The position numbers were made by a program, and so were the translations under genes. The notes below the pieces were generated by a model that saw only the letters and a program-made list of their open reading frames with translations, searched no databases and was not told the origin of the DNA. A stretch of DNA of 49,779 nucleotides from a virus, in IMG/VR virus record IMGVR_UViG_3300021387_001333, positions 1 to 49,779 of that record, one strand, 5' to 3'. Numbering within the stretch: position 1 is the first letter of the stretch; every line of letters starts with the position of its first letter. Of this stretch, positions 4,277 to 25,583 are shown piece by piece.

Positions 4277-4435
4277 ATGAACGTTTTCATTGCCCGAATG
4301 ATTGACTGCGGACTGTCACGAGAAACCGCTCTCGCTGTCTGCCGTTACTATATGCGCTACAAAACCATTGCCGATCTTGCCGAATACGTCACCGCTCTGG
4401 AGGCTGAAACATATGGCCGTATGGAAGCTGTATAA
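4277..4435 (+). CDS. Hypothetical small protein
   Basis: ATG 4277 follows GAAGGAGG, in the frame of ORF 4217..4435. Confidence 0.55.
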   Translation: MNVFIARMIDCGLSRETALAVCRYYMRYKTIADLAEYVTALEAETYGRMEAV

Positions 4436-4799
4436 CCCTTCCCCGGTTGGTCGAAATGTCGGCGACTGTTCCGTCCGGGCTGTTGCAAAAGCACTTGATA
4501 CGGATTGGGAAACCGCTTACGCCCTGATTGCGATGAACGGCTTCCTGATGGGCGATATGCCGAGTTCGAACGCCGTCTGGGGCGCGGTTCTCCGGCAGAA
4601 CGGTTTTTCGCGTTACGCCGTTCCGAGTACCTGTCCCGATTGCTACACCATCGGAGACTTCGCCGATGAAAACCCACACGGCATTTACGTTGTCGGGACA
4701 GGAAATCATGTCTGCACAATCAAGGACGGCGTGGTTTTTGACAGTTGGGATTCCCGCTCCGAAATTCCTCAATACTACTGGACAAAAGACAACGGTTAA
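4413..4799 (+). CDS. Conserved phage protein with a GDCSVRA motif (possibly papain-like; function unknown)
   Basis: ATG 4413 is in the frame of ORF 4302..4799. The pattern NVGDCSVRAVAKAL...CPDCYT...GNHVCTIKDG recurs in Firmicutes prophages (recollection). Confidence 0.65.
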   Translation: MAVWKLYNPSPVGRNVGDCSVRAVAKALDTDWETAYALIAMNGFLMGDMPSSNAVWGAVLRQNGFSRYAVPSTCPDCYTIGDFADENPHGIYVVGTGNHVCTIKDGVVFDSWDSRSEIPQYYWTKDNG

Positions 4800-6141: not shown

Positions 6142-7125
6142 ATGTATTATGTGTATGAATGGTTTGTTGTGGAAACTGGCGAGGTAATCTACGTCGGAAA
6201 AGGCACCGGGCGAAGATACAAAGTCAGGAAACACAACCGGCTCTTTAATGAAATGATACGTCGTTTTGAATGCGATAGTAGAATAGTTAAAGAGTTTGGA
6301 ACCGAACGCGAGGCTTTTGAGTTTGAGTTTGTCCGTATAAACGAAATGCACGAACGCGGTCAATGTGTGTGTAACATACATAATGGCGGATATGGTGGAA
6401 CCGTGGAATGGTGGACAGACGAATTGCGGGCGCATTATTCGGAAATAAATGTGATGAAATCAGAAGAGCAACGCAAACGCATGTCTGAAAACAATCCCAT
6501 GAAGGACAAGAAGATAGCTGAAAAGACAAACAGCCGGAAACGGAAAGCTGTAATTATAGGCGAACGTGAATATCCTTCAATTAAGGCGGTTTGTGAGGCT
6601 TACCATACTTCGTCTGAAGTGGTCTCAACGTGGTGCAAAAAAGGTGTCAATGCCCAAGGTGAAAAGTGCAGATACAAATGGCTTGACCAAGCTGAATTTA
6701 CAGACAAACGATATAACAAGGGCGGAAGCCGTGCAGTCGTTTATAAAGATGTTCGGTATGAGTGTATCAAAGATTTCGCCATTTCGATTGGAATCGGCGA
6801 AAGAACGGCATCCGAATGGTTAAAACGTGGATTCAATCCTGACGGAATACCATGCCGGTATGAGAATGATGCGCGCGAACTGGTTTTTATAAATAGACAT
6901 GTTGCGCGGAATAAAGCCAAATCAAAGCCAGTAATTGTAAATGGGGTTGAGTATAAGTCATGCGAAGAGGCAAGTAAAGCACTCGGAATCGCAAAGACAA
7001 CAATCTACTCCTATTTGCAAGGCATAAGGAAAAGCACAAAGTACATTTGCAAATATGGCAATCAGCAGCCAAGCCGGGGGAATACCGATGACAGTACCCC
7101 GGAAGGTTCAACGACTAACAGGTGA
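6142..7125 (+). CDS. GIY-YIG homing endonuclease with repeated NUMOD/IENR-like DNA-binding modules
   Basis: MYYVYEW...GEVIYVGKGTGRRY is a GIY-YIG motif. The protein also has a NPMKD (NUMOD3-like) motif and three repeats of Y-x-S/C-I/C-K/E-x-A/F...W/Y-x-K/Q-G helix modules. The gene is AT-rich relative to its flanks. Confidence 0.85.
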   Translation: MYYVYEWFVVETGEVIYVGKGTGRRYKVRKHNRLFNEMIRRFECDSRIVKEFGTEREAFEFEFVRINEMHERGQCVCNIHNGGYGGTVEWWTDELRAHYSEINVMKSEEQRKRMSENNPMKDKKIAEKTNSRKRKAVIIGEREYPSIKAVCEAYHTSSEVVSTWCKKGVNAQGEKCRYKWLDQAEFTDKRYNKGGSRAVVYKDVRYECIKDFAISIGIGERTASEWLKRGFNPDGIPCRYENDARELVFINRHVARNKAKSKPVIVNGVEYKSCEEASKALGIAKTTIYSYLQGIRKSTKYICKYGNQQPSRGNTDDSTPEGSTTNR

Positions 7126-19943: not shown

Positions 19944-20396
19944 ATGAAAATCATGTTAGATGGGCCAGACGCGATTCTGCCGACCCGTGCCCACGATCAG
20001 GACGCTGGGCTGGATTTGTACAGCCGGGAAGAAAAGATCATTGGCGGCATTTCCCGTGAGTACATTGATAATTATGATCCGCTTGAAAATTACGCCGTCT
20101 TTGATACAGGCGTTCACATCGAATTGCCGCCGGGGACGTTTGGACAGCTTTTCAGCAAAAGCGGCCTGAACGTCAACTATAACATCGTTTCATGTGGAGG
20201 CACAATCGACGAGGGCTACACCGGAAGCATCCACGTCAAGTTATACAACCTTGGGAAGAAGCCATATATGATCCGCAAGGGGCAGAAAATTTGTCAGTTG
20301 GTGATCATGCCCTGTTTGAAACCTGATCTTGAAATCGTAGAAAAATTGGAGGACACCGAGCGTGGAACAGGTGGGTTTGGATCAACAGGCATGTAA
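19944..20396 (+). CDS. dut: dUTP diphosphatase
   Basis: AHDQDAGLDLYS, GGTIDEGYTGSIHVKLYN and RGTGGFGSTG are dUTPase motifs. Confidence 0.9.
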   Translation: MKIMLDGPDAILPTRAHDQDAGLDLYSREEKIIGGISREYIDNYDPLENYAVFDTGVHIELPPGTFGQLFSKSGLNVNYNIVSCGGTIDEGYTGSIHVKLYNLGKKPYMIRKGQKICQLVIMPCLKPDLEIVEKLEDTERGTGGFGSTGM

Positions 20397-20517
20397 GAAC
20401 TGCCGCTATCGCTCAGATGATTTTACCAGCGTTTGCGTAAACGCCGATTCTGACCGTGTAGCAGATTTCGTGATGCCGGATGACTGGTGCGAAGAATGGG
20501 GAGCAGAAGAGGTTTAA
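20371..20517 (+). CDS. Small Cys-rich protein (48 aa, below the ORF-track cutoff)
   Basis: GTG 20371 (or TTG 20377) ... ACKNCRYRSDDFTSVCVNADSDRVADFVMPDDWCEEWGAEEV, stop TAA 20515-20517. It overlaps the end of dut. Confidence 0.45.
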   Translation: MGLDQQACKNCRYRSDDFTSVCVNADSDRVADFVMPDDWCEEWGAEEV

Positions 20518-20521
20518 AACA

Positions 20522-20588
20522 CAGGCACGTTCCGCGCTTGCGTGGGGCGAGAAATCCGCTGATCATTCACGGTCGGTGCAGTGCCTGA
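20522..20588 (+). ncRNA. Stem-closed RNA module M1
   Basis: 7-bp closing helix CAGGCAC/GTGCCTG, with an internal CCGCG-CUUG-CGUGG hairpin at 20532-20545, followed by GAAATAGGAG. Confidence 0.3.
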
Positions 20589-20597
20589 AATAGGAGT

Positions 20598-20718
20598 TTA
20601 AGCGGTGGCGGAATAGGTAGACGCTTATCTGACTAAGGGAGATAGTACGAGGGCAGGGAGAACCGAGTCGGCGAACTATGAATGCTCCCATGTGAGGTGC
20701 AAATCCTCACCCGCTTAA
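20598..20718 (+). ncRNA. Aberrant tRNA-Leu-like cloverleaf (module M2)
   Basis: Acceptor-like helix TTAAGCGG/CCGCTTAA of 8 bp. D arm GCG-GAATAGGTAGA-CGC. Stem TATCT/AGATA with a 9-nt loop GACTAAGGG. A 47-nt insert. T arm GTGAGG-TGCAAAT-CCTCAC. No CCA is encoded. Confidence 0.45.
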
Positions 20719-20739
20719 CTTAAATAGGAGCATTAAAAC

Positions 20740-20800
20740 AGGTTGCGGTGGTTGCGAGAGATGGGGAATGGGCAACGTAATTGGTGGGTGTCCGCAACTT
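20740..20800 (+). ncRNA. Stem-closed RNA module M3 (internally shortened relative of M2)
   Basis: 9-bp helix AGGTTGCGG/CCGCAACTT and an inner GTTGC/GCAAC stem. It shares GCGGTGG at the 5' end and CCGC..AACTTAAATA at the 3' end with M2. Confidence 0.3.
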
Positions 20801-20823
20801 AAATAACACATAGGAGGCTGACG

Positions 20824-20964
20824 ATGGACAACGAAACAGTTATCAAGGCCCTTGAAAAAGGCATCCGCATTTCAGAAGCCGCCGAAAGCGGGTGGGTCTG
20901 GATCACGATTGAGCAGGCGCGGAAAGCATTGGAGCTATTGATGGAGGGCAACGATGAACGATGA
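20824..20964 (+). CDS. Hypothetical small protein (46 aa)
   Basis: ATG 20824 follows ATAGGAGG; stop TGA at 20962-20964. It overlaps the next start. Confidence 0.45.
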   Translation: MDNETVIKALEKGIRISEAAESGWVWITIEQARKALELLMEGNDER

Positions 20965-23589: not shown

Positions 23590-24360
23590 ATGGCTGTCAA
23601 TAAAGCGTTCGACCACAGTAAATATAAAGATTGGATTGACCCGAACACCGTGGTTCCGTATGAAAAGAACGCCAAGATTCACACGGACAAACAGGTGAAG
23701 AATATCTGTACCAGCATCCGGCGGTTCGGATGGCAACAGGATACCGTGCTTACTTCCGACAACGTGTTAGTCATCGGTCACGGCAGACGGCTTGCCGCGC
23801 TGGAACTTGGGTGTGAAATGCCGTACCACAGGATCGACAAGGAAGCAGACGAGCTGACGGAAAAGGACATCCGGGAACTCAGGATCGCGGACAACCAGAC
23901 CAACTCAGAGACTGGATATGATTTTGAAATCCTCAGCAATGATATATCTGATCTGAGCTTTGAAGGGTTTGATTTTTCCTTTCAGGAAGACATTGAGGAA
24001 GCTGAAAAGGAAGACAACAAATATTCAACAGAAACAAAGATTCCGCAGTATGAGCCAAGTGGAGAGCCGTCCGTTGTTGAACTGATATCGACTGGAAAAG
24101 TTGATGGAATGATTGAGGAAATTGAAGCATCAAGTGTATCCGAGGAAGAGAAGGAATTTCTTCGGATTGCCGCATACAGGCATGCGGTGATCAATTTCGA
24201 CAAGGTTGCGGACTACTATGCAAATGCTTCTGCTGAAATGCAACGCCTGATGGAGAGGAGCGCATTGGTGCTGATTGGTCTTGATGATGCAATTGCCAAT
24301 GGATACACAACACTTACGGCGGCTCTTGATGACCTGATGGAGGAAGACTTGGATGAGTGA
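23590..24360 (+). CDS. ParB N-terminal (ParB-like nuclease) domain protein
   Basis: VPYEKNAKIHTDKQVKNICTSIRRFGWQQD..LTSDNVLVIGHGRRLAALELG is a ParB/Srx-fold signature. Confidence 0.8.
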   Translation: MAVNKAFDHSKYKDWIDPNTVVPYEKNAKIHTDKQVKNICTSIRRFGWQQDTVLTSDNVLVIGHGRRLAALELGCEMPYHRIDKEADELTEKDIRELRIADNQTNSETGYDFEILSNDISDLSFEGFDFSFQEDIEEAEKEDNKYSTETKIPQYEPSGEPSVVELISTGKVDGMIEEIEASSVSEEEKEFLRIAAYRHAVINFDKVADYYANASAEMQRLMERSALVLIGLDDAIANGYTTLTAALDDLMEEDLDE

Positions 24361-25207
24361 ACGCAACATGGCTGTGTTTATTCTCACGCATGGAAGGGCT
24401 GACAATGTGCATACCTACAAAGCCCTCAGGTCGCATGGGTATACTGGGAAAATCTATCTTGTGATTGATGATGAGGATGATCAGGAAGAGCTTTATCGGA
24501 ACACATACGGAGATGAGGTTGTCCAATTCTGCAAAGAGGAATATATAAAGAAAAGCATGTGCATCAATCCTGACAAGCCAAGGAAAGTGATTCTGTATGC
24601 GAGAAACGCTTGCTTTGATATAGCAAAAAAGTTGGGTATAACTCATTTCGTTGAAATGGATGATGATTATTCAGCTTTTCAATGGAGATATGATGACGGC
24701 GAGAGGCTGAGAGCAAAAGAGTGCGGCAATCTGGACAGAATATTTTCTGCCTTTTTTGATTTTATGGAAGCAAGCAAAGCCTCTTCGATTGCGTTTGGTC
24801 AGGGTGGTGATCTTCTGGGCGGCAGGAATGGAGGATGGAAGAAAAACCCATTGAAGCGGAAAGCCATGAACTCCTTTTTCTGCATCACAGAAAAGCCAAT
24901 AGGGTTTATCGGCAGTATCAACGAGGATGTTAATACCTATGTGACAAAAGGCAATCGTGGAGAGTTGTTTTTCAGCGTTATGCGGCTGATTCTGGTGCAG
25001 GGTGAAACCCAGAGCAACAAGGGTGGCATGACAGAAACCTATATTGAAAACGGAACGTATGTGAAGACTTTCCCGTCCGTGATGCTCAATCCCTCATGTG
25101 TAAAGGTTGGAATGATGGGACAGTCAGGAAAGAGAATACACCACAAGATTGCATGGAAGAATGCAGTACCAAAAATACTGAGTGAGAGGTGGAGAAAGTA
25201 TGAATGA
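24353..25207 (+). CDS. GT-A-like nucleotide-sugar transferase-like protein (tentative)
   Basis: The N-terminus AVFILTHGRADN looks like a beta-strand and loop, and VEMDDDYS is a DxD-like motif. I found no motif of a typical virion protein. The fold assignment is by eye only. Confidence 0.5.
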   Translation: MSERNMAVFILTHGRADNVHTYKALRSHGYTGKIYLVIDDEDDQEELYRNTYGDEVVQFCKEEYIKKSMCINPDKPRKVILYARNACFDIAKKLGITHFVEMDDDYSAFQWRYDDGERLRAKECGNLDRIFSAFFDFMEASKASSIAFGQGGDLLGGRNGGWKKNPLKRKAMNSFFCITEKPIGFIGSINEDVNTYVTKGNRGELFFSVMRLILVQGETQSNKGGMTETYIENGTYVKTFPSVMLNPSCVKVGMMGQSGKRIHHKIAWKNAVPKILSERWRKYE

Positions 25208-25583
25208 CGATAGACCGAAATCGCCAATAAATGGCGTTCCGCTCCCAAGAGGAAAGCCTTTTGAACGGGGGGAGGAACAGAGGGAAAAAGCAAGGAAAGC
25301 CGGATTGATTTCCGGGGAGGTCAGAAGGGCAAGGAAAACACTTCGGGAAGAATTGCTTGAGTTGCTGACCGTTGAAGTTGTTGACAGCAAAGGCAACAAA
25401 AACAGCACTCAGGCGGCTCTGTCGAGTGCACTTATCAAGCAAGCCCTGAGGGGCAATACAAAGGCTTTTGAGATCATCCGTGATACGATCGGCGAAAAAC
25501 CCGCAGAAAACGTGAATCTTATTTCATCTGATTTTTCAGCCCTTGACGAAGCATTTGAAAAAATGGAAGGTAAGGGAAAATGA
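25200..25583 (+). CDS. terS: Terminase small subunit
   Basis: Its position is directly upstream of terL. The basic N-terminus contains ...REKARKAGLISGEVRRARKTLREELLELL. Confidence 0.7.
   Translation: MNDDRPKSPINGVPLPRGKPFERGEEQREKARKAGLISGEVRRARKTLREELLELLTVEVVDSKGNKNSTQAALSSALIKQALRGNTKAFEIIRDTIGEKPAENVNLISSDFSALDEAFEKMEGKGK

What the first reader, a model, noticed from the sequence alone, without database searches (positions are those of the whole stretch)
20518..20823. ORF-free segment with an aberrant tRNA-Leu-like cloverleaf flanked by two related stem-closed RNA modules
This 306 nt has no credible ORF and resolves into three consecutive helix-closed modules. Each is followed by a similar tail, (G/T)AAATAGGAG or TAAATAACACATAGGAGG. 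M1 (20522-20588) is closed by CAGGCAC/GTGCCTG and contains a CCGCG-CUUG-CGUGG hairpin. M2 (20598-20718) is closed by 8 bp TTAAGCGG/CCGCTTAA. M3 (20740-20800) is closed by 9 bp AGGTTGCGG/CCGCAACTT. M2 reads like a tRNA. It has T-G at positions 8-9 and a D arm GCG-GAATAGGTAGA-CGC, one base different from the class II E. coli tRNA-Leu D arm as I remember it (GCGGAAUUGGUAGACGC). It also has a TATCT/AGATA stem, a T arm GTGAGG-TGCAAAT-CCTCAC and A at the discriminator position. Several features are non-canonical, however. The anticodon loop has 9 nt (GACTAAGGG). The T loop has G where U55 is expected. The T stem is 6 bp, giving an acceptor plus T stack of 13-14 bp. A 47-nt insert (20645-20691, with an internal GGGAG/CTCCC stem) sits where a variable arm of about 20 nt or less would be. 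The first pair is U-A and no CCA is encoded. ATAGT (20642-20646) can alternatively pair with ACTAT (20675-20679), which competes with the anticodon stem. M3 shares both ends with M2 (GCGGTGG... and ...CCGC(TT)AACTTAAATA) but lacks the middle, so it looks like a deleted duplicate. Possible roles, all speculative, include a decayed tRNA gene, a tRNA-mimic decoy for host tRNA-targeting enzymes, or RNase P/Z-type processing signals that punctuate the polycistronic early/middle transcript.
Basis: partly seen in the sequence, partly recalled or inferred. Interest (0 to 1): 0.72.

Follow-up and report, generated by a model that had tools for sequence, protein, structure and literature searches.

The report
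Phage anticodon-less tRNA-Leu-like RNA gene
The middle module of this gene-free stretch belongs to a large, apparently undescribed family of phage RNAs that keep the upper half of a leucine tRNA but have no anticodon arm; the two flanking modules are unrelated conserved elements.

Summary
The 306-nt ORF-free segment is real and holds three separate things, not three related modules.

**M2 (20599-20717)** is a clear member of a widespread family of tRNA-Leu-derived RNAs.
- Family features: a 7-bp acceptor stem, U8-G9, an almost invariant class-II D arm (GCGGAAUAGGUAGACGC), "AU" plus a 6-bp T stem, and a UGCAAAU T loop with G at position 55.
- One hypervariable long arm replaces the anticodon and variable arms.
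- A covariance model built without M2 scores it at 85.7 bits (E 5e-22). On 102 distinct members, 14 of 16 core pairs show changes on both sides.
- ARAGORN, Rfam 15 and GenBank annotation all miss it. Members occur in SPP1, SPbeta-like, Grass/SBSphiJ, Listeria PSA/A511/P100, Enterococcus phiFL2B and many Bacillota prophages.

**The repeated "tails"** are ribosome-binding-site (RBS) and cassette-junction motifs of this phage lineage.

**M1** is a near-invariant structured element in five relatives. **M3** is conserved in one relative that lacks M2. Neither belongs to the family.

**Most likely reading:** a non-decoding tRNA mimic, excised like a tRNA and acting in trans. Its target is unknown.

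The parts
20599..20605 (+). M2 acceptor stem, 5' strand (TAAGCGG). It pairs with 20711-20717. T20598-A20718 can add an 8th pair.
   Evidence: Sequence. The family has a 7-bp acceptor stem with changes on both sides in 6 of 7 pairs. Pairing does not usually extend beyond 7 bp.
20606..20607 (+). U8-G9 connector
   Evidence: Invariant in 102 members.
20608..20624 (+). D arm GCGGAATAGGTAGACGC: a 3-bp stem G10-C25, C11-G24, G12-C23, with loop nucleotides A14, A15, G18 and G19
   Evidence: The exact 21-mer occurs in at least 120 IMG/VR contigs. It remains the dominant partner when members are selected by the T arm alone. The D stem shows compensatory variants, e.g. ACGG..CGT and GTGG..CAC.
20625..20636 (+). 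Linker TTATCTGACTAA. It matches the subfamily pattern gC-TTA-(loop)-TAA-G seen in many members.
   Evidence: L005, L007, L013, L040, L063, L115, L127, L169 share TTA...TAAG[A/G] before the long arm.
20637..20689 (+). Long arm replacing the anticodon and variable arms. GGGAGATAG (20637-45) pairs with CTAT (20676-79) and CTCCC (20685-89). The inner hairpin is CG/GGC/GG...CC/GTC/CG.
   Evidence: Pair probabilities of 0.95-1.0 with the core constrained. The consensus fold with L229 shows one compensatory G-C to A-U pair in the apical helix, read here as about 20656/20664. In other members the arm likewise closes just before AU plus the T stem.
20690..20691 (+). A-U before the T stem. The U is in the position of U48, the Levitt partner of A15.
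   Evidence: YAT precedes the T stem in 74 of 83 members. These columns are at least 90% conserved.
20692..20710 (+). T arm: 6-bp stem GTGAGG/CCTCAC and loop TGCAAAT (U54 G55 C56 A57 A58 A59 U60)
   Evidence: Loop TGCAAAT occurs in 129 of 139 distinct members. All 6 stem pairs show changes on both sides.
20711..20717 (+). M2 acceptor stem, 3' strand (CCGCTTA). A20718 sits at the discriminator position. No CCA is encoded.
   Evidence: The discriminator is not conserved in the family (A30 T28 C13 G12).
20522..20587 (+). M1: a conserved structured element (closing helix GGCAC/GTGCC plus two hairpins) following the Cys-rich small ORF. It is not part of the tRNA-like family.
   Evidence: Near-invariant in L001/L222, L218, L219 and L224. 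Fold z-score -2.69. No + strand hit with R1; only a -0.6-bit match on the - strand at E 6.9.
20728..20802 (+). M3 with its leader (…GCATTAAAACAGG + GGTTGCGG…CCGCAACT): a separate conserved module of unknown function
   Evidence: Present with 2 substitutions in L223 (2285-2352), which has no M2. R1 score 10.4 bits only. Fold z-score -2.04.
20588..20598 (+). Junction/RBS motif (G)AAATAGGAGTTT upstream of M2
   Evidence: The same TTAAATAGGAGTTTA precedes protein cassettes in L219 and L222 and, as TTAAATAGGAGG, in L224. It also precedes the M2 homologue in L229.
20719..20729 (+). Junction/RBS motif CTTAAATAGGA downstream of M2. It is repeated at 20799-20819 (TTAAATAACACATAGGAGG), the RBS of the ORF at 20824.
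   Evidence: ACTTAAATAACAC.AGGAGG follows protein cassettes in L001, L219, L220, L222, L223 and L224.

Best explanation
**What is shown**
- M2 (window 20599-20717, + strand) is a gene for a non-decoding tRNA mimic. It belongs to a large phage-borne RNA family derived from class-II tRNA-Leu.
- The RNA keeps what builds the upper half and elbow of a tRNA: a 7-bp acceptor stem, U8, A14, A15, G18-G19, the D stem, U48, U54, C56, A58 and the T stem.
- It has three fixed departures from real tRNAs: G at position 55, a 6-bp T stem, and one variable long arm in place of the anticodon and variable arms.
- It has no anticodon loop, no conserved discriminator and no conserved protein partner.

**What is inferred**
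- M2 is transcribed within the + strand polycistronic early/middle transcript.
- It folds into an L shape and is cut out by RNase P (5') and RNase Z plus the CCA-adding enzyme (3'), like the tRNA genes it often sits among.
- It accumulates as a stable RNA of about 120 nt that cannot decode. G55 and the extra T-stem pair probably keep it out of aminoacylation and translation.

**What is only a best guess**
- It acts in trans on a host factor that recognises the tRNA top half, as a decoy or sponge.
- Alternatively the tRNA-like core acts as a processing and stability scaffold that presents the lineage-specific long arm.

M1 and M3 are independent conserved elements. The repeated tails are cassette-junction/RBS motifs.
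For: **Membership**
- Model R1, built from 49 other members, scores M2 at 85.7 bits, E 5e-22. It is the only significant hit in the window.

**The family is real**
The T-arm pattern also hit that limit in species genomes.
- Selecting members by one arm recovers the other arm.
- On 102 distinct members, 98.7% of cells are paired and 14 of 16 pairs change on both sides. Covariation is 0.642 against 0.163 in shuffles (0 of 500 reach it) and 0.05-0.13 for slid partners.
- SPP1 and Grass share the element almost unchanged, while their acceptor stems differ by fully compensated changes.

**It is not a decoding tRNA**
- ARAGORN finds 0 genes. With introns allowed it still finds none in M2, and none in 134 of 139 members.
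- Rfam 15 gives no hit even at E<10.
- The middle ranges from 8 to more than 200 nt with no shared motif.
- M2's middle folds as one arm.

**Processing like a tRNA is plausible**
- Members sit inside tRNA arrays with tRNA-like spacing. L350's R1 hit abuts tRNA-Asn with 0-nt spacing. L036 lies 7 nt after tRNA-Gln. In L107, L099 and L120 the sequence just downstream of the element reads like a tRNA gene.
- The acceptor stem is strictly 7 bp.

**It is autonomous and mobile**
- There is no shared neighbouring gene.
- The M2 homologue in L229 lies between tail-fibre and endolysin genes of an unrelated phage.
- M2 is absent from the same slot in the closest relatives.

**Distribution**
- Mostly Bacillota phages and prophages.
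Against: - No expression, processing or binding data exist for M2 or any member, so every mechanistic step is inference.
- No promoter or terminator is detectable near M2.
- The discriminator is not conserved and CCA is not encoded. A role needing aminoacylation is therefore unlikely, and the 3' end is unknown.
- Some members carry hairpin insertions inside the T loop between positions 55 and 56. This fits poorly with a strictly tRNA-like elbow.
- The 13-bp stack could shift or impair RNase P cleavage.
- A purely cis role as an mRNA processing site would also explain the conserved top half.
- The long arm is conserved in sequence between unrelated phages of one host. The arm, rather than the tRNA-like core, may be the active part.
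- The literature search covered open-access text only, so an earlier description cannot be excluded.
Confidence: 0.6

Rival explanations
1. M2 is purely a cis-acting processing signal. The tRNA-like fold recruits RNase P and RNase Z to cut the polycistronic transcript (tRNA punctuation), and the excised RNA has no function of its own.
For: - Only the tRNA top half is conserved.
- Members lie between genes in the same orientation. They often sit in late-operon leaders between an ArpU/RinA-type regulator and terS or in tRNA arrays.
Against: - An ordinary tRNA would serve as a cutting signal. That does not explain the near-invariant Leu-type D arm, the fixed G55 or the extra T-stem pair.
- It does not explain sequence conservation of the long arm between unrelated phages of one host.
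- It does not explain spread of the same RNA into unrelated genomic contexts.
Confidence: 0.2
2. M2 is a decayed, non-functional tRNA-Leu pseudogene.
For: - The D arm is identical to that of genuine phage tRNA-Leu(UAA) genes (L009, L030, L090).
- The loop-like GACTAAG resembles the tRNA-Leu(UAA) anticodon-loop sequence CTTAAAA.
Against: - The same departures from tRNA recur in over 200 distinct copies, with compensatory changes in all three stems.
- There are 70 or more full-length hits in species-level genomes.
- All 40 P100/A511-like Listeria phages that match carry it at 98% identity or more.
Confidence: 0.03
3. M2 is a functional decoding tRNA: an aberrant tRNA-Leu, a frameshift or nonsense suppressor with an enlarged anticodon loop, or an intron-containing tRNA.
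For: - A 5-6 bp TATCT/AGATA(G) helix with loop GACUAAGGG can be drawn.
- ARAGORN at relaxed thresholds proposes a tRNA-Thr(agt) with a 36-nt intron.
Against: - That helix has probability about 0 once the core is fixed, and the cloverleaf is about 14-22 kcal/mol worse.
- The family has no conserved anticodon arm, and L042 has none at all.
- ARAGORN calls are absent at default thresholds and inconsistent when relaxed.
- The discriminator is not conserved.
Confidence: 0.03
4. M2 is a tmRNA-like RNA or a non-ribosomal aminoacyl donor. It would be charged (for example by LeuRS, which ignores the anticodon) and used outside normal decoding.
For: - The topology matches the tRNA-like domain of tmRNA: ends in the acceptor stem, T arm, and a long helix replacing the anticodon arm.
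- The Leu-type D arm and the A15/U48 positions are conserved.
- M2 itself has A at the discriminator position.
- From memory: staphylococcal non-proteinogenic tRNA-Gly also has UGC in place of T-psi-C.
Against: - The discriminator varies (A30 T28 C13 G12) and G3-U70 is rare.
- ARAGORN called no tmRNA in the window, and no tag ORF or pseudoknots were noted.
- The extra T-stem pair changes the distance from elbow to acceptor end.
Confidence: 0.06
5. M1, M2 and M3 form one composite structured RNA or three diverged copies of one module.
For: - The three are adjacent and on the same strand.
- M2 and M3 share GCGGTGG...CCGC.
- R1 gives M3 10.4 bits with filters off.
Against: - Each module occurs without the others: M1 alone in L218, L219, L222 and L224; M3 without M2 in L223; M2 alone in L229.
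- The shared tails are junction motifs that also flank protein cassettes.
- M3 lacks the D and T arms.
Confidence: 0.04

Closest known systems
Canonical class-II tRNA-Leu (phage-encoded tRNA-Leu(UAA), Rfam RF00005)
   Same: - The D arm is identical (GGUGGCGGAAUAGGUAGACGC in L009, L030, L090).
- It has a 7-bp acceptor stem, U8, A14, A15/U48, G18G19, U54, C56 and A58.
- It is located in phage tRNA arrays.
- A genuine tRNA-Leu scores about 30 bits with the family model.
   Different: - No anticodon arm, G55 instead of U55, and a 6-bp T stem (7/6 rather than 7/5).
- The discriminator is not conserved.
- It is not detected by ARAGORN or RF00005.
Bacterial and phage Y RNAs of the YrlA type (Chen et al. 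2014, PMC4201824)
   Same: A non-coding RNA with a tRNA-like D arm, T arm and acceptor-like stem, also found in phages. It is a tRNA mimic of unclear purpose and a substrate for tRNA enzymes.
   Different: - In YrlA the 5' and 3' ends form the Ro60-binding stem where the anticodon arm would be, and the acceptor-like stem is a closed hairpin. Here the ends form the acceptor stem.
- In YrlA, and not here, the T arm carries pseudouridine.
- YrlA is linked to rsr/Ro60 genes. Most members here have no such neighbour.
T4 stable RNAs species 1 and 2 (rnaC, rnaD)
   Same: Small stable RNAs of unknown function encoded at the end of a phage tRNA cluster. rnaC ends in a T arm plus an acceptor-like 3' strand.
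   Different: - The T loop is canonical (GGTTCGAATCC) and the sequence differs.
- There is no Leu-type D arm.
- Model R1 finds nothing in the T4 region.
tmRNA tRNA-like domain
   Same: The 5' and 3' ends pair as an acceptor stem, a T arm is present, and a long helix replaces the anticodon arm. It has no anticodon.
   Different: - tmRNA has a reduced D loop, G3-U70 alanine identity, an encoded or added CCA, pseudoknots and a tag ORF.
- Here ARAGORN called no tmRNA, G3-U70 is rare and no CCA is encoded. Pseudoknots and a tag ORF were not searched for specifically.
ROOL and GOLLD RNAs
   Same: Phage or prophage-associated structured RNAs of unknown function, often next to tRNA genes, mostly in Bacillota (PMC5737381).
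   Different: They are 500-800 nt and not tRNA-like. No Rfam hit to them was found in the window or in the 16 related loci scanned.

Membership tests
Phage anticodon-less tRNA-Leu-like RNA family (defined here; model R1) | Significant score with a covariance model built from other members | tested here: met
   85.7 bits, E 5e-22, full length 1-119, window 20596-20720. Other members score 40-91 bits.
Phage anticodon-less tRNA-Leu-like RNA family (defined here; model R1) | 7-bp acceptor stem with G7-C66, then U8-G9 and the D arm GCGGAAUAGGUAGACGC | tested here: met
   Window 20599-20624 matches exactly.
Phage anticodon-less tRNA-Leu-like RNA family (defined here; model R1) | YAU + 6-bp T stem + UGCAAAU loop, followed directly by the acceptor 3' strand | tested here: met
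   CAT GTGAGG TGCAAAT CCTCAC CCGCTTA at 20689-20717.
Phage anticodon-less tRNA-Leu-like RNA family (defined here; model R1) | A variable structured arm between the D and T arms that closes just before AU, with no conserved anticodon loop | tested here: met
   Long arm 20637-20689, pair probabilities 0.95-1.0. The pattern is shared with other members.
Phage anticodon-less tRNA-Leu-like RNA family, applied to M3 | D arm, T arm and a significant model score | tested here: not met
   10.4 bits with filters off. The reverse strand scores 3.9. There is no D or T arm.
Phage anticodon-less tRNA-Leu-like RNA family, applied to M1 | D arm, T arm and a significant model score | tested here: not met
   No + strand hit. 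Only a -0.6-bit match on the - strand, E 6.9.
Canonical tRNA (RF00005 / ARAGORN) | Detected by tRNA covariance model or ARAGORN | tested here: not met
   ARAGORN finds 0 genes, also with introns allowed. Rfam gives no tRNA hit at the gathering score or at E<10.
Canonical tRNA (RF00005 / ARAGORN) | Anticodon arm: 5-bp stem and 7-nt loop with U33 | tested here: not met
   The only candidate has a 9-nt loop and probability about 0. It is absent from the family.
Canonical tRNA (RF00005 / ARAGORN) | T loop U54-U55-C56 and a 12-bp (7/5) acceptor/T stack | tested here: not met
   G55 and a 6-bp T stem, in M2 and in about 95% of members.
Canonical tRNA (RF00005 / ARAGORN) | Elbow-forming tertiary nucleotides (U8, A14, G18, G19, C56, A58, pair 15-48) | tested here: met
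   Invariant or at least 90% conserved in alignment A1. Whether the elbow forms in three dimensions was not testable.
YrlA / bacterial Y RNA | 5' and 3' ends form the Ro60-binding stem, the acceptor-like stem is closed by a loop, and the gene lies next to rsr | tested here: not met
   The topology is the opposite: the ends lie in the acceptor stem. No Y-RNA family is among the Rfam matches. No shared or Ro60-like neighbour appears in the neighbour surveys.
tmRNA | tRNA-Ala-like domain with G3-U70, tag reading frame, pseudoknots | tested here: not met
   ARAGORN's tmRNA search found none. Rfam found none. Position 3-70 is A-U in M2, and G-U is rare in the family.
tRNA-Sec | 13-bp acceptor/T stack as 8/5, 6-bp D stem, UCA anticodon | tested here: not met
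   The stack would be 13 bp but arranged 7/6. The D stem is 3 bp and there is no anticodon.
RNase P / RNase Z substrate (works like a pre-tRNA) | Cleavage at the ends of the acceptor stem; CCA addition | not testable with these tools
   Only indirect support: strict 7-bp acceptor stem, conserved elbow nucleotides, and tRNA-like spacing in tRNA arrays.

The most novel reading that the evidence does not exclude
Phages of Bacillota, including model phages SPP1, A511/P100, PSA, SPbeta-like and SBSphiJ-like, carry a previously unrecognised, horizontally mobile class of anticodon-less tRNA-Leu mimics. The RNAs would be matured by the host tRNA-processing machinery. They would then act in trans on a host tRNA-binding factor, for example as a sponge for tRNA-directed immunity or toxins, or as a natural tRNA scaffold presenting a host-specific RNA arm.
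Probability: 0.3. Interest if true: 0.88.

Novelty: new variant of a known kind. Interest (0 to 1): 0.76.

Why it matters
**If the family is truly undescribed**
- It is one of the most widespread unannotated structured RNAs of Bacillota phages.
- It sits unannotated in decades-old model phages such as SPP1 (between genes 9 and 11), A511/P100 and PSA, so it can be tested genetically at once.

**What it would add**
- A third architecture of bacterial tRNA mimicry beside tmRNA and YrlA.
- A concrete question: which host factor reads a tRNA top half with G55 and a 13-bp stack?

**Practical consequences**
- tRNA finders and Rfam 15 miss it, and gene callers sometimes place "hypothetical proteins" over it.
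- Adding a model would improve phage annotation.

Tried and rejected
- **tRNA and Rfam detection.** ARAGORN at default and with introns found nothing. At relaxed thresholds it gave only inconsistent calls. Rfam 15 at gathering score and at E<10 returned only chance hits, SNORA36 and Ms_IGR-8.
- **Direct BLAST.** blastn of the whole region against GenBank phages found nothing at E 1e-5. A short T-arm query at E<10 was needed.
- **Antisense role.** M1, the M2 arm and M3 have no complementarity in the window beyond chance.
- **Transcription signals.** No promoter or terminator excess around the region.
- **Partner gene.** Neighbour clustering and a Pfam survey of 133 upstream ORFs found no conserved partner. 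Only a minority show an ArpU/RinA-type regulator upstream and terS downstream.
- **Shared motif in the variable arm.** None found, only subfamily motifs.
- **Y RNA.** Rejected on topology.
- **T4 rnaC/rnaD.** Not homologous.
- **Small ORF through M3.** The TTG-start reading frame is broken by a TAG in L223. A 13-codon ATG frame cannot be judged.
- **Hits outside Bacillota.** T-arm hits in Proteobacteria, Terriglobales, Fibrobacteres, an uncultured Bacteroidia MAG and Dysgonomonas have no full R1 hit and are chance. Rhodobacter, Caulobacter and E. coli phage hits lie in coding genes at E>1.
- **Literature.** Nine full-text searches, including the motif strings themselves, found no description. 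The SPP1 re-annotation paper does not mention it.
- **Defence systems.** Schlafen and Septu tRNA-cleaving defences were read as possible targets. No specific link was found.
Full report
**1. Setting**

The window is a phage or prophage of about 50% GC. The region lies in a run of small + strand genes.
- Upstream are a dUTPase (19944-20396; Pfam E 2e-28) and a 51-codon Cys-rich ORF ending at 20517.
- Downstream are the ORFs at 20824 and 20954. The large terminase lies at 25580.
- 20518-20823 has no credible ORF, no promoter or terminator signal above background, no ARAGORN tRNA and no Rfam 15 match.
- The whole stretch folds only marginally better than shuffles (z -1.74). The three modules taken separately do better: M1 z -2.69, M2 z -3.79, M3 z -2.04.

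**2. M2 belongs to a large family**

- Only a few of these hits are genuine tRNA-Leu(UAA) genes. At most of the others ARAGORN calls nothing.
- Reading the flanks shows a common plan:
  - N5GG-UG-GCGGAAUAGGUAGACGC,
  - then a middle of 8 to more than 200 nt,
  - then YAU, a 6-bp stem with loop UGCAAAU,
  - then the complement of the first seven bases.
- The reverse experiment scanned with the T-arm pattern alone. It recovered the same D arm as the dominant 5' partner. Variants include compensatory D-stem changes such as ACGG..CGT and GTGG..CAC.
- On a composite alignment of 102 distinct members (A1), counts for the acceptor, D and T stems were as follows:
  - 98.7% of cells are paired.
  - 14 of 16 pairs change on both sides.
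  - The covariation score is 0.642, against 0.163 in shuffles (0 of 500 reach it) and 0.05-0.13 when partners are slid.
- Members were selected for at least 6 of 7 acceptor pairs, so the percentage paired is partly built in. The two strands sit at fixed offsets from the D and T motifs, about 90% of D-arm hits pass, and my own estimate of chance at a fixed position is about 2%. The variety of pair types is not built in.
- A covariance model from 49 members, excluding the window and L229 (A3, R1), finds M2 at 85.7 bits, E 5e-22. Nothing else in the window is significant.

**3. What M2 looks like**

- With the covarying core fixed, the middle of M2 folds as one long arm. GGGAGAUAG (20637-45) pairs with CUAU (20676-79) and CUCCC (20685-89), with pair probabilities of 0.95-1.0.
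The long-arm drawing gives -32.2 and the constrained optimum -39.7.
- L229 is the only close homologue of M2's arm. There GGGAG(20656-60) is mutated while CUCCC is unchanged. One apical pair changes G-C to A-U, and the acceptor gains a G-U.
- The stretch gC-UUA-(loop)-UAA-G(R) followed by the 5' strand of the arm recurs in many members.
- The family as a whole has no conserved anticodon arm. L042 joins the D and T arms by 8 nt, and k-mer analysis finds no shared motif in the middles.
- Canonical tertiary nucleotides are invariant or nearly so: U8, A14, A15, G18, G19, U48, U54, C56 and A58.
- The fixed departures from real tRNAs are G55 (134 of 139 members have G at loop position 2) and a sixth T-stem pair, giving a 7/6 arrangement.
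- The base after the acceptor stem is not conserved (A30 T28 C13 G12). CCA is not encoded, and the stem rarely extends beyond 7 bp.

**4. Where the family lives**

*Cultured phages.* A 30-nt T-arm query finds 218 GenBank phage records. For nearly all listed records nothing is annotated under the match. The members I read directly are these:

| Phage | Location |
|---|---|
| Bacillus SPP1 | Between genes 9 and 11 |
| Bacillus Grass (Goe- and SBSphiJ-type phages also matched the T-arm query) | Inside the tRNA array |
| SPbeta-like phages | After two hypothetical genes; nothing annotated downstream |
| Listeria PSA | After the ArpU-like activator gp53; Rfam rli62 just upstream and the mcrA RNA motif downstream |
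| Listeria A511/P100 group (40 phages at 98% identity or more) | Abutting tRNA-Asn |
| Enterococcus phiFL2B | Between the ArpU regulator and terS |
| Brochothrix BtpYZU01 | Regulator, element, tRNA-Asn, terS |
| Leuconostoc phiLNTR3 | Near the left genome end |

- R1 confirms about 70 of the 80 loci searched.
- Nearly all are Bacillota: Clostridia, Bacillus, Paenibacillus, Weissella, Leuconostoc, Enterococcus, Pediococcus and lactobacilli.
- A few lie elsewhere: Fusobacterium, a Tenericutes MAG, Saccharibacteria, Muribaculaceae and Thermodesulfobacteriota.
- The proteobacterial, Terriglobales, Fibrobacteres, Bacteroidia-MAG and Dysgonomonas pattern hits are chance.

*Neighbours.* No neighbouring protein is shared. 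The recurrent settings are tRNA arrays and the leader between an ArpU/RinA-type regulator and terS.

*Mobility.*
- M2's homologue in L229 sits between tail-fibre and endolysin genes of an unrelated phage.
- SPP1 (a siphovirus) and Grass (a myovirus) share the element and a 25-nt 5' hairpin almost unchanged. Their acceptor stems differ by fully compensated changes.
- This points to an autonomous, horizontally moving RNA gene tuned to the host rather than to the phage.

**5. M1, M3 and the tails**

*The slot.* Syntenic relatives were found through the 99-aa ORF downstream. They show a cassette slot.
- L219, L222 (the same contig as L001) and L224 have M1, then TTAAATAGGAG, then a small protein gene, then ACTTAAATAACAC..AGGAGG.
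- L218 has M1 and then the next gene directly.
- L223 has protein cassettes separated by the same motif, followed by M3.
- None has M2.

*The tails.* They are therefore junction/RBS motifs of this phage lineage. They also flank the M2 homologue in L229.

*M1.*
- Its core is GGCAC...GTGCC, 20524-20585.
- It is almost invariant in five phages while its flanks vary.
- The only changes are a C-to-U that keeps a G-U pair and AUUCAC to GUUCGC in a loop.
- It is probably functional, but there is too little variation to test a structure.

*M3.*
- It differs by two substitutions in L223. Both are compatible with its closing helix. One creates a TAG in the TTG-start reading frame.
- R1 gives M3 10.4 bits and its reverse strand 3.9. 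It shares only the stem and GGUGG with the family.

*Relationship.* The three modules are independent.

**6. Mechanism**

*Shown.*
- A conserved, covarying, tRNA-derived fold without an anticodon.
- No partner gene.
- Mobility between phages.
- Frequent placement among tRNA genes with tRNA-like spacing (0-7 nt in L350 and L036).

*Inferred from established tRNA biology (my own knowledge).*
- RNase P, RNase Z and the CCA-adding enzyme recognise the acceptor/T minihelix and the elbow.
- The RNA is therefore probably excised and matured like a tRNA.
- G55 would block pseudouridine-55 formation by TruB.
- An extra T-stem pair changes the distance from elbow to acceptor end that synthetases, EF-Tu and the ribosome use.
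- Together with the variable discriminator, this argues for exclusion from translation.

*Guess.*
- The RNA acts in trans on a host factor that reads the tRNA top half.
- Or the core is a natural tRNA scaffold for a lineage-specific arm.
- A purely cis punctuation role is the main rival.

tRNA-directed defences do exist. [quoted passage not shown] Bacterial Schlafen-like nucleases cleave tRNA in the anticodon loop (PMC13434031). Nothing here links them to this RNA.

**7. Comparison with known families, and novelty**

- The closest known kinds are class-II tRNA-Leu (its evident ancestor), YrlA Y RNAs, the tmRNA tRNA-like domain and the T4 stable RNAs rnaC and rnaD.
- Membership tests fail for each of them (see the table).
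- Rfam 15, ARAGORN and GenBank annotation do not recognise the family. Nine full-text searches, including the motif strings, found no description.
- A catalogue of 10,006 candidate viral structured RNAs (PMC10690425) mentions tRNA-like candidates only where ARAGORN overlaps them, so this family may lie unrecognised in it.
- I rate it a new variant of a known kind (tRNA mimics). Subscription literature could not be searched.

**8. Verdict**

- The valuable core of the finding is M2. It is not a decayed or aberrant tRNA.
- It is a bona fide member of a widespread, conserved, unannotated family of phage anticodon-less tRNA-Leu mimics.

Noticed in passing
window 23590-25207: The ORF at 24353-25207 is a TET-associated glycosyltransferase (Pfam TAGT, E 2e-36). 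It lies next to a GDPD-like ORF (23590-24360). This suggests a DNA hypermodification module just upstream of the terminase.
   Followed up: no
window 20522-20587 (M1); L222 1950-2015, L218 10190-10250 (-), L219 287-350, L224 44-107: A structured element of about 62 nt (GGCAC...GTGCC enclosing two hairpins) is almost invariant in five related phages. It always lies directly after a small Cys-rich ORF. There is no Rfam match and its function is unknown.
   Followed up: partly
window 20728-20802 (M3); L223 2285-2352: M3 plus its CATTAAAACAGG leader is conserved with 2 substitutions in a relative lacking M2. In L223 it follows a further ORF-free stretch of about 130 nt (about 2190-2285) that may hold another RNA.
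   Followed up: partly
window 20588-20598, 20719-20729, 20799-20819; L219, L222, L223, L224, L229: A short junction motif, (A)CTTAAATA followed by GGAG or ACAC.AGGAGG, separates small cassettes (proteins or RNAs) in this phage lineage. It also flanks the M2 homologue in an unrelated phage. It looks like a recombination linker combined with an RBS.
   Followed up: partly
L087, L088, L100, L043, L091, L050, L051, L077 (IMG/VR loci): Some family members carry a hairpin of 10-70 nt inserted inside the T loop, between G55 and C56 (GGUG-AC...insert...-CAAAUCC).
   Followed up: no
L008, L018, L022, L044, L060, L072, L080, L111: In some members the long arm contains a second, canonical T-arm-like hairpin (GGTTCGATTCC). 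In L060, Rfam's tRNA model scores an internal segment at 31.7 bits. These look like nested tRNA-like modules.
   Followed up: no
L092, L113, L148, L244, L288, L307, L260: Two family copies lie in tandem or within a few kb in the same phage or prophage.
   Followed up: no
L213 (Listeria phage PSA) 1253-1698: The late-operon leader after the ArpU-like activator holds three structured RNAs in a row: Rfam rli62 (100 bits), the tRNA-like element (1438-1525), and the mcrA RNA motif (73 bits).
   Followed up: no
L212 (SPP1) 1895-1920 and 2040-2090; L209 (Grass) 2385-2410: SPP1 and Grass share a conserved 25-nt hairpin (AGGGTTCGGGGWTAGCCCGGACGA) immediately 5' of the element. In SPP1 a mini tRNA-like hairpin (ACGGAC...GCGGGTTCAATTCCCGGAGTCCGT) follows it.
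   Followed up: partly
L350 (Listeria phage LMTA-148) 5840-6913 and 7841-9021: P100-like Listeria phages have an ORF-free region of about 1 kb. It holds an unannotated tRNA (6180-6254) and lies upstream of a gene annotated 'RNA-binding protein'. From its position I take that gene to correspond to the Ro60-like CKA15_055 of PMC12282133, but I did not test this. That paper reports extremely abundant unannotated RNAs near there. Their relation to the tRNA-like element at 4384-4530 is unknown.
   Followed up: partly
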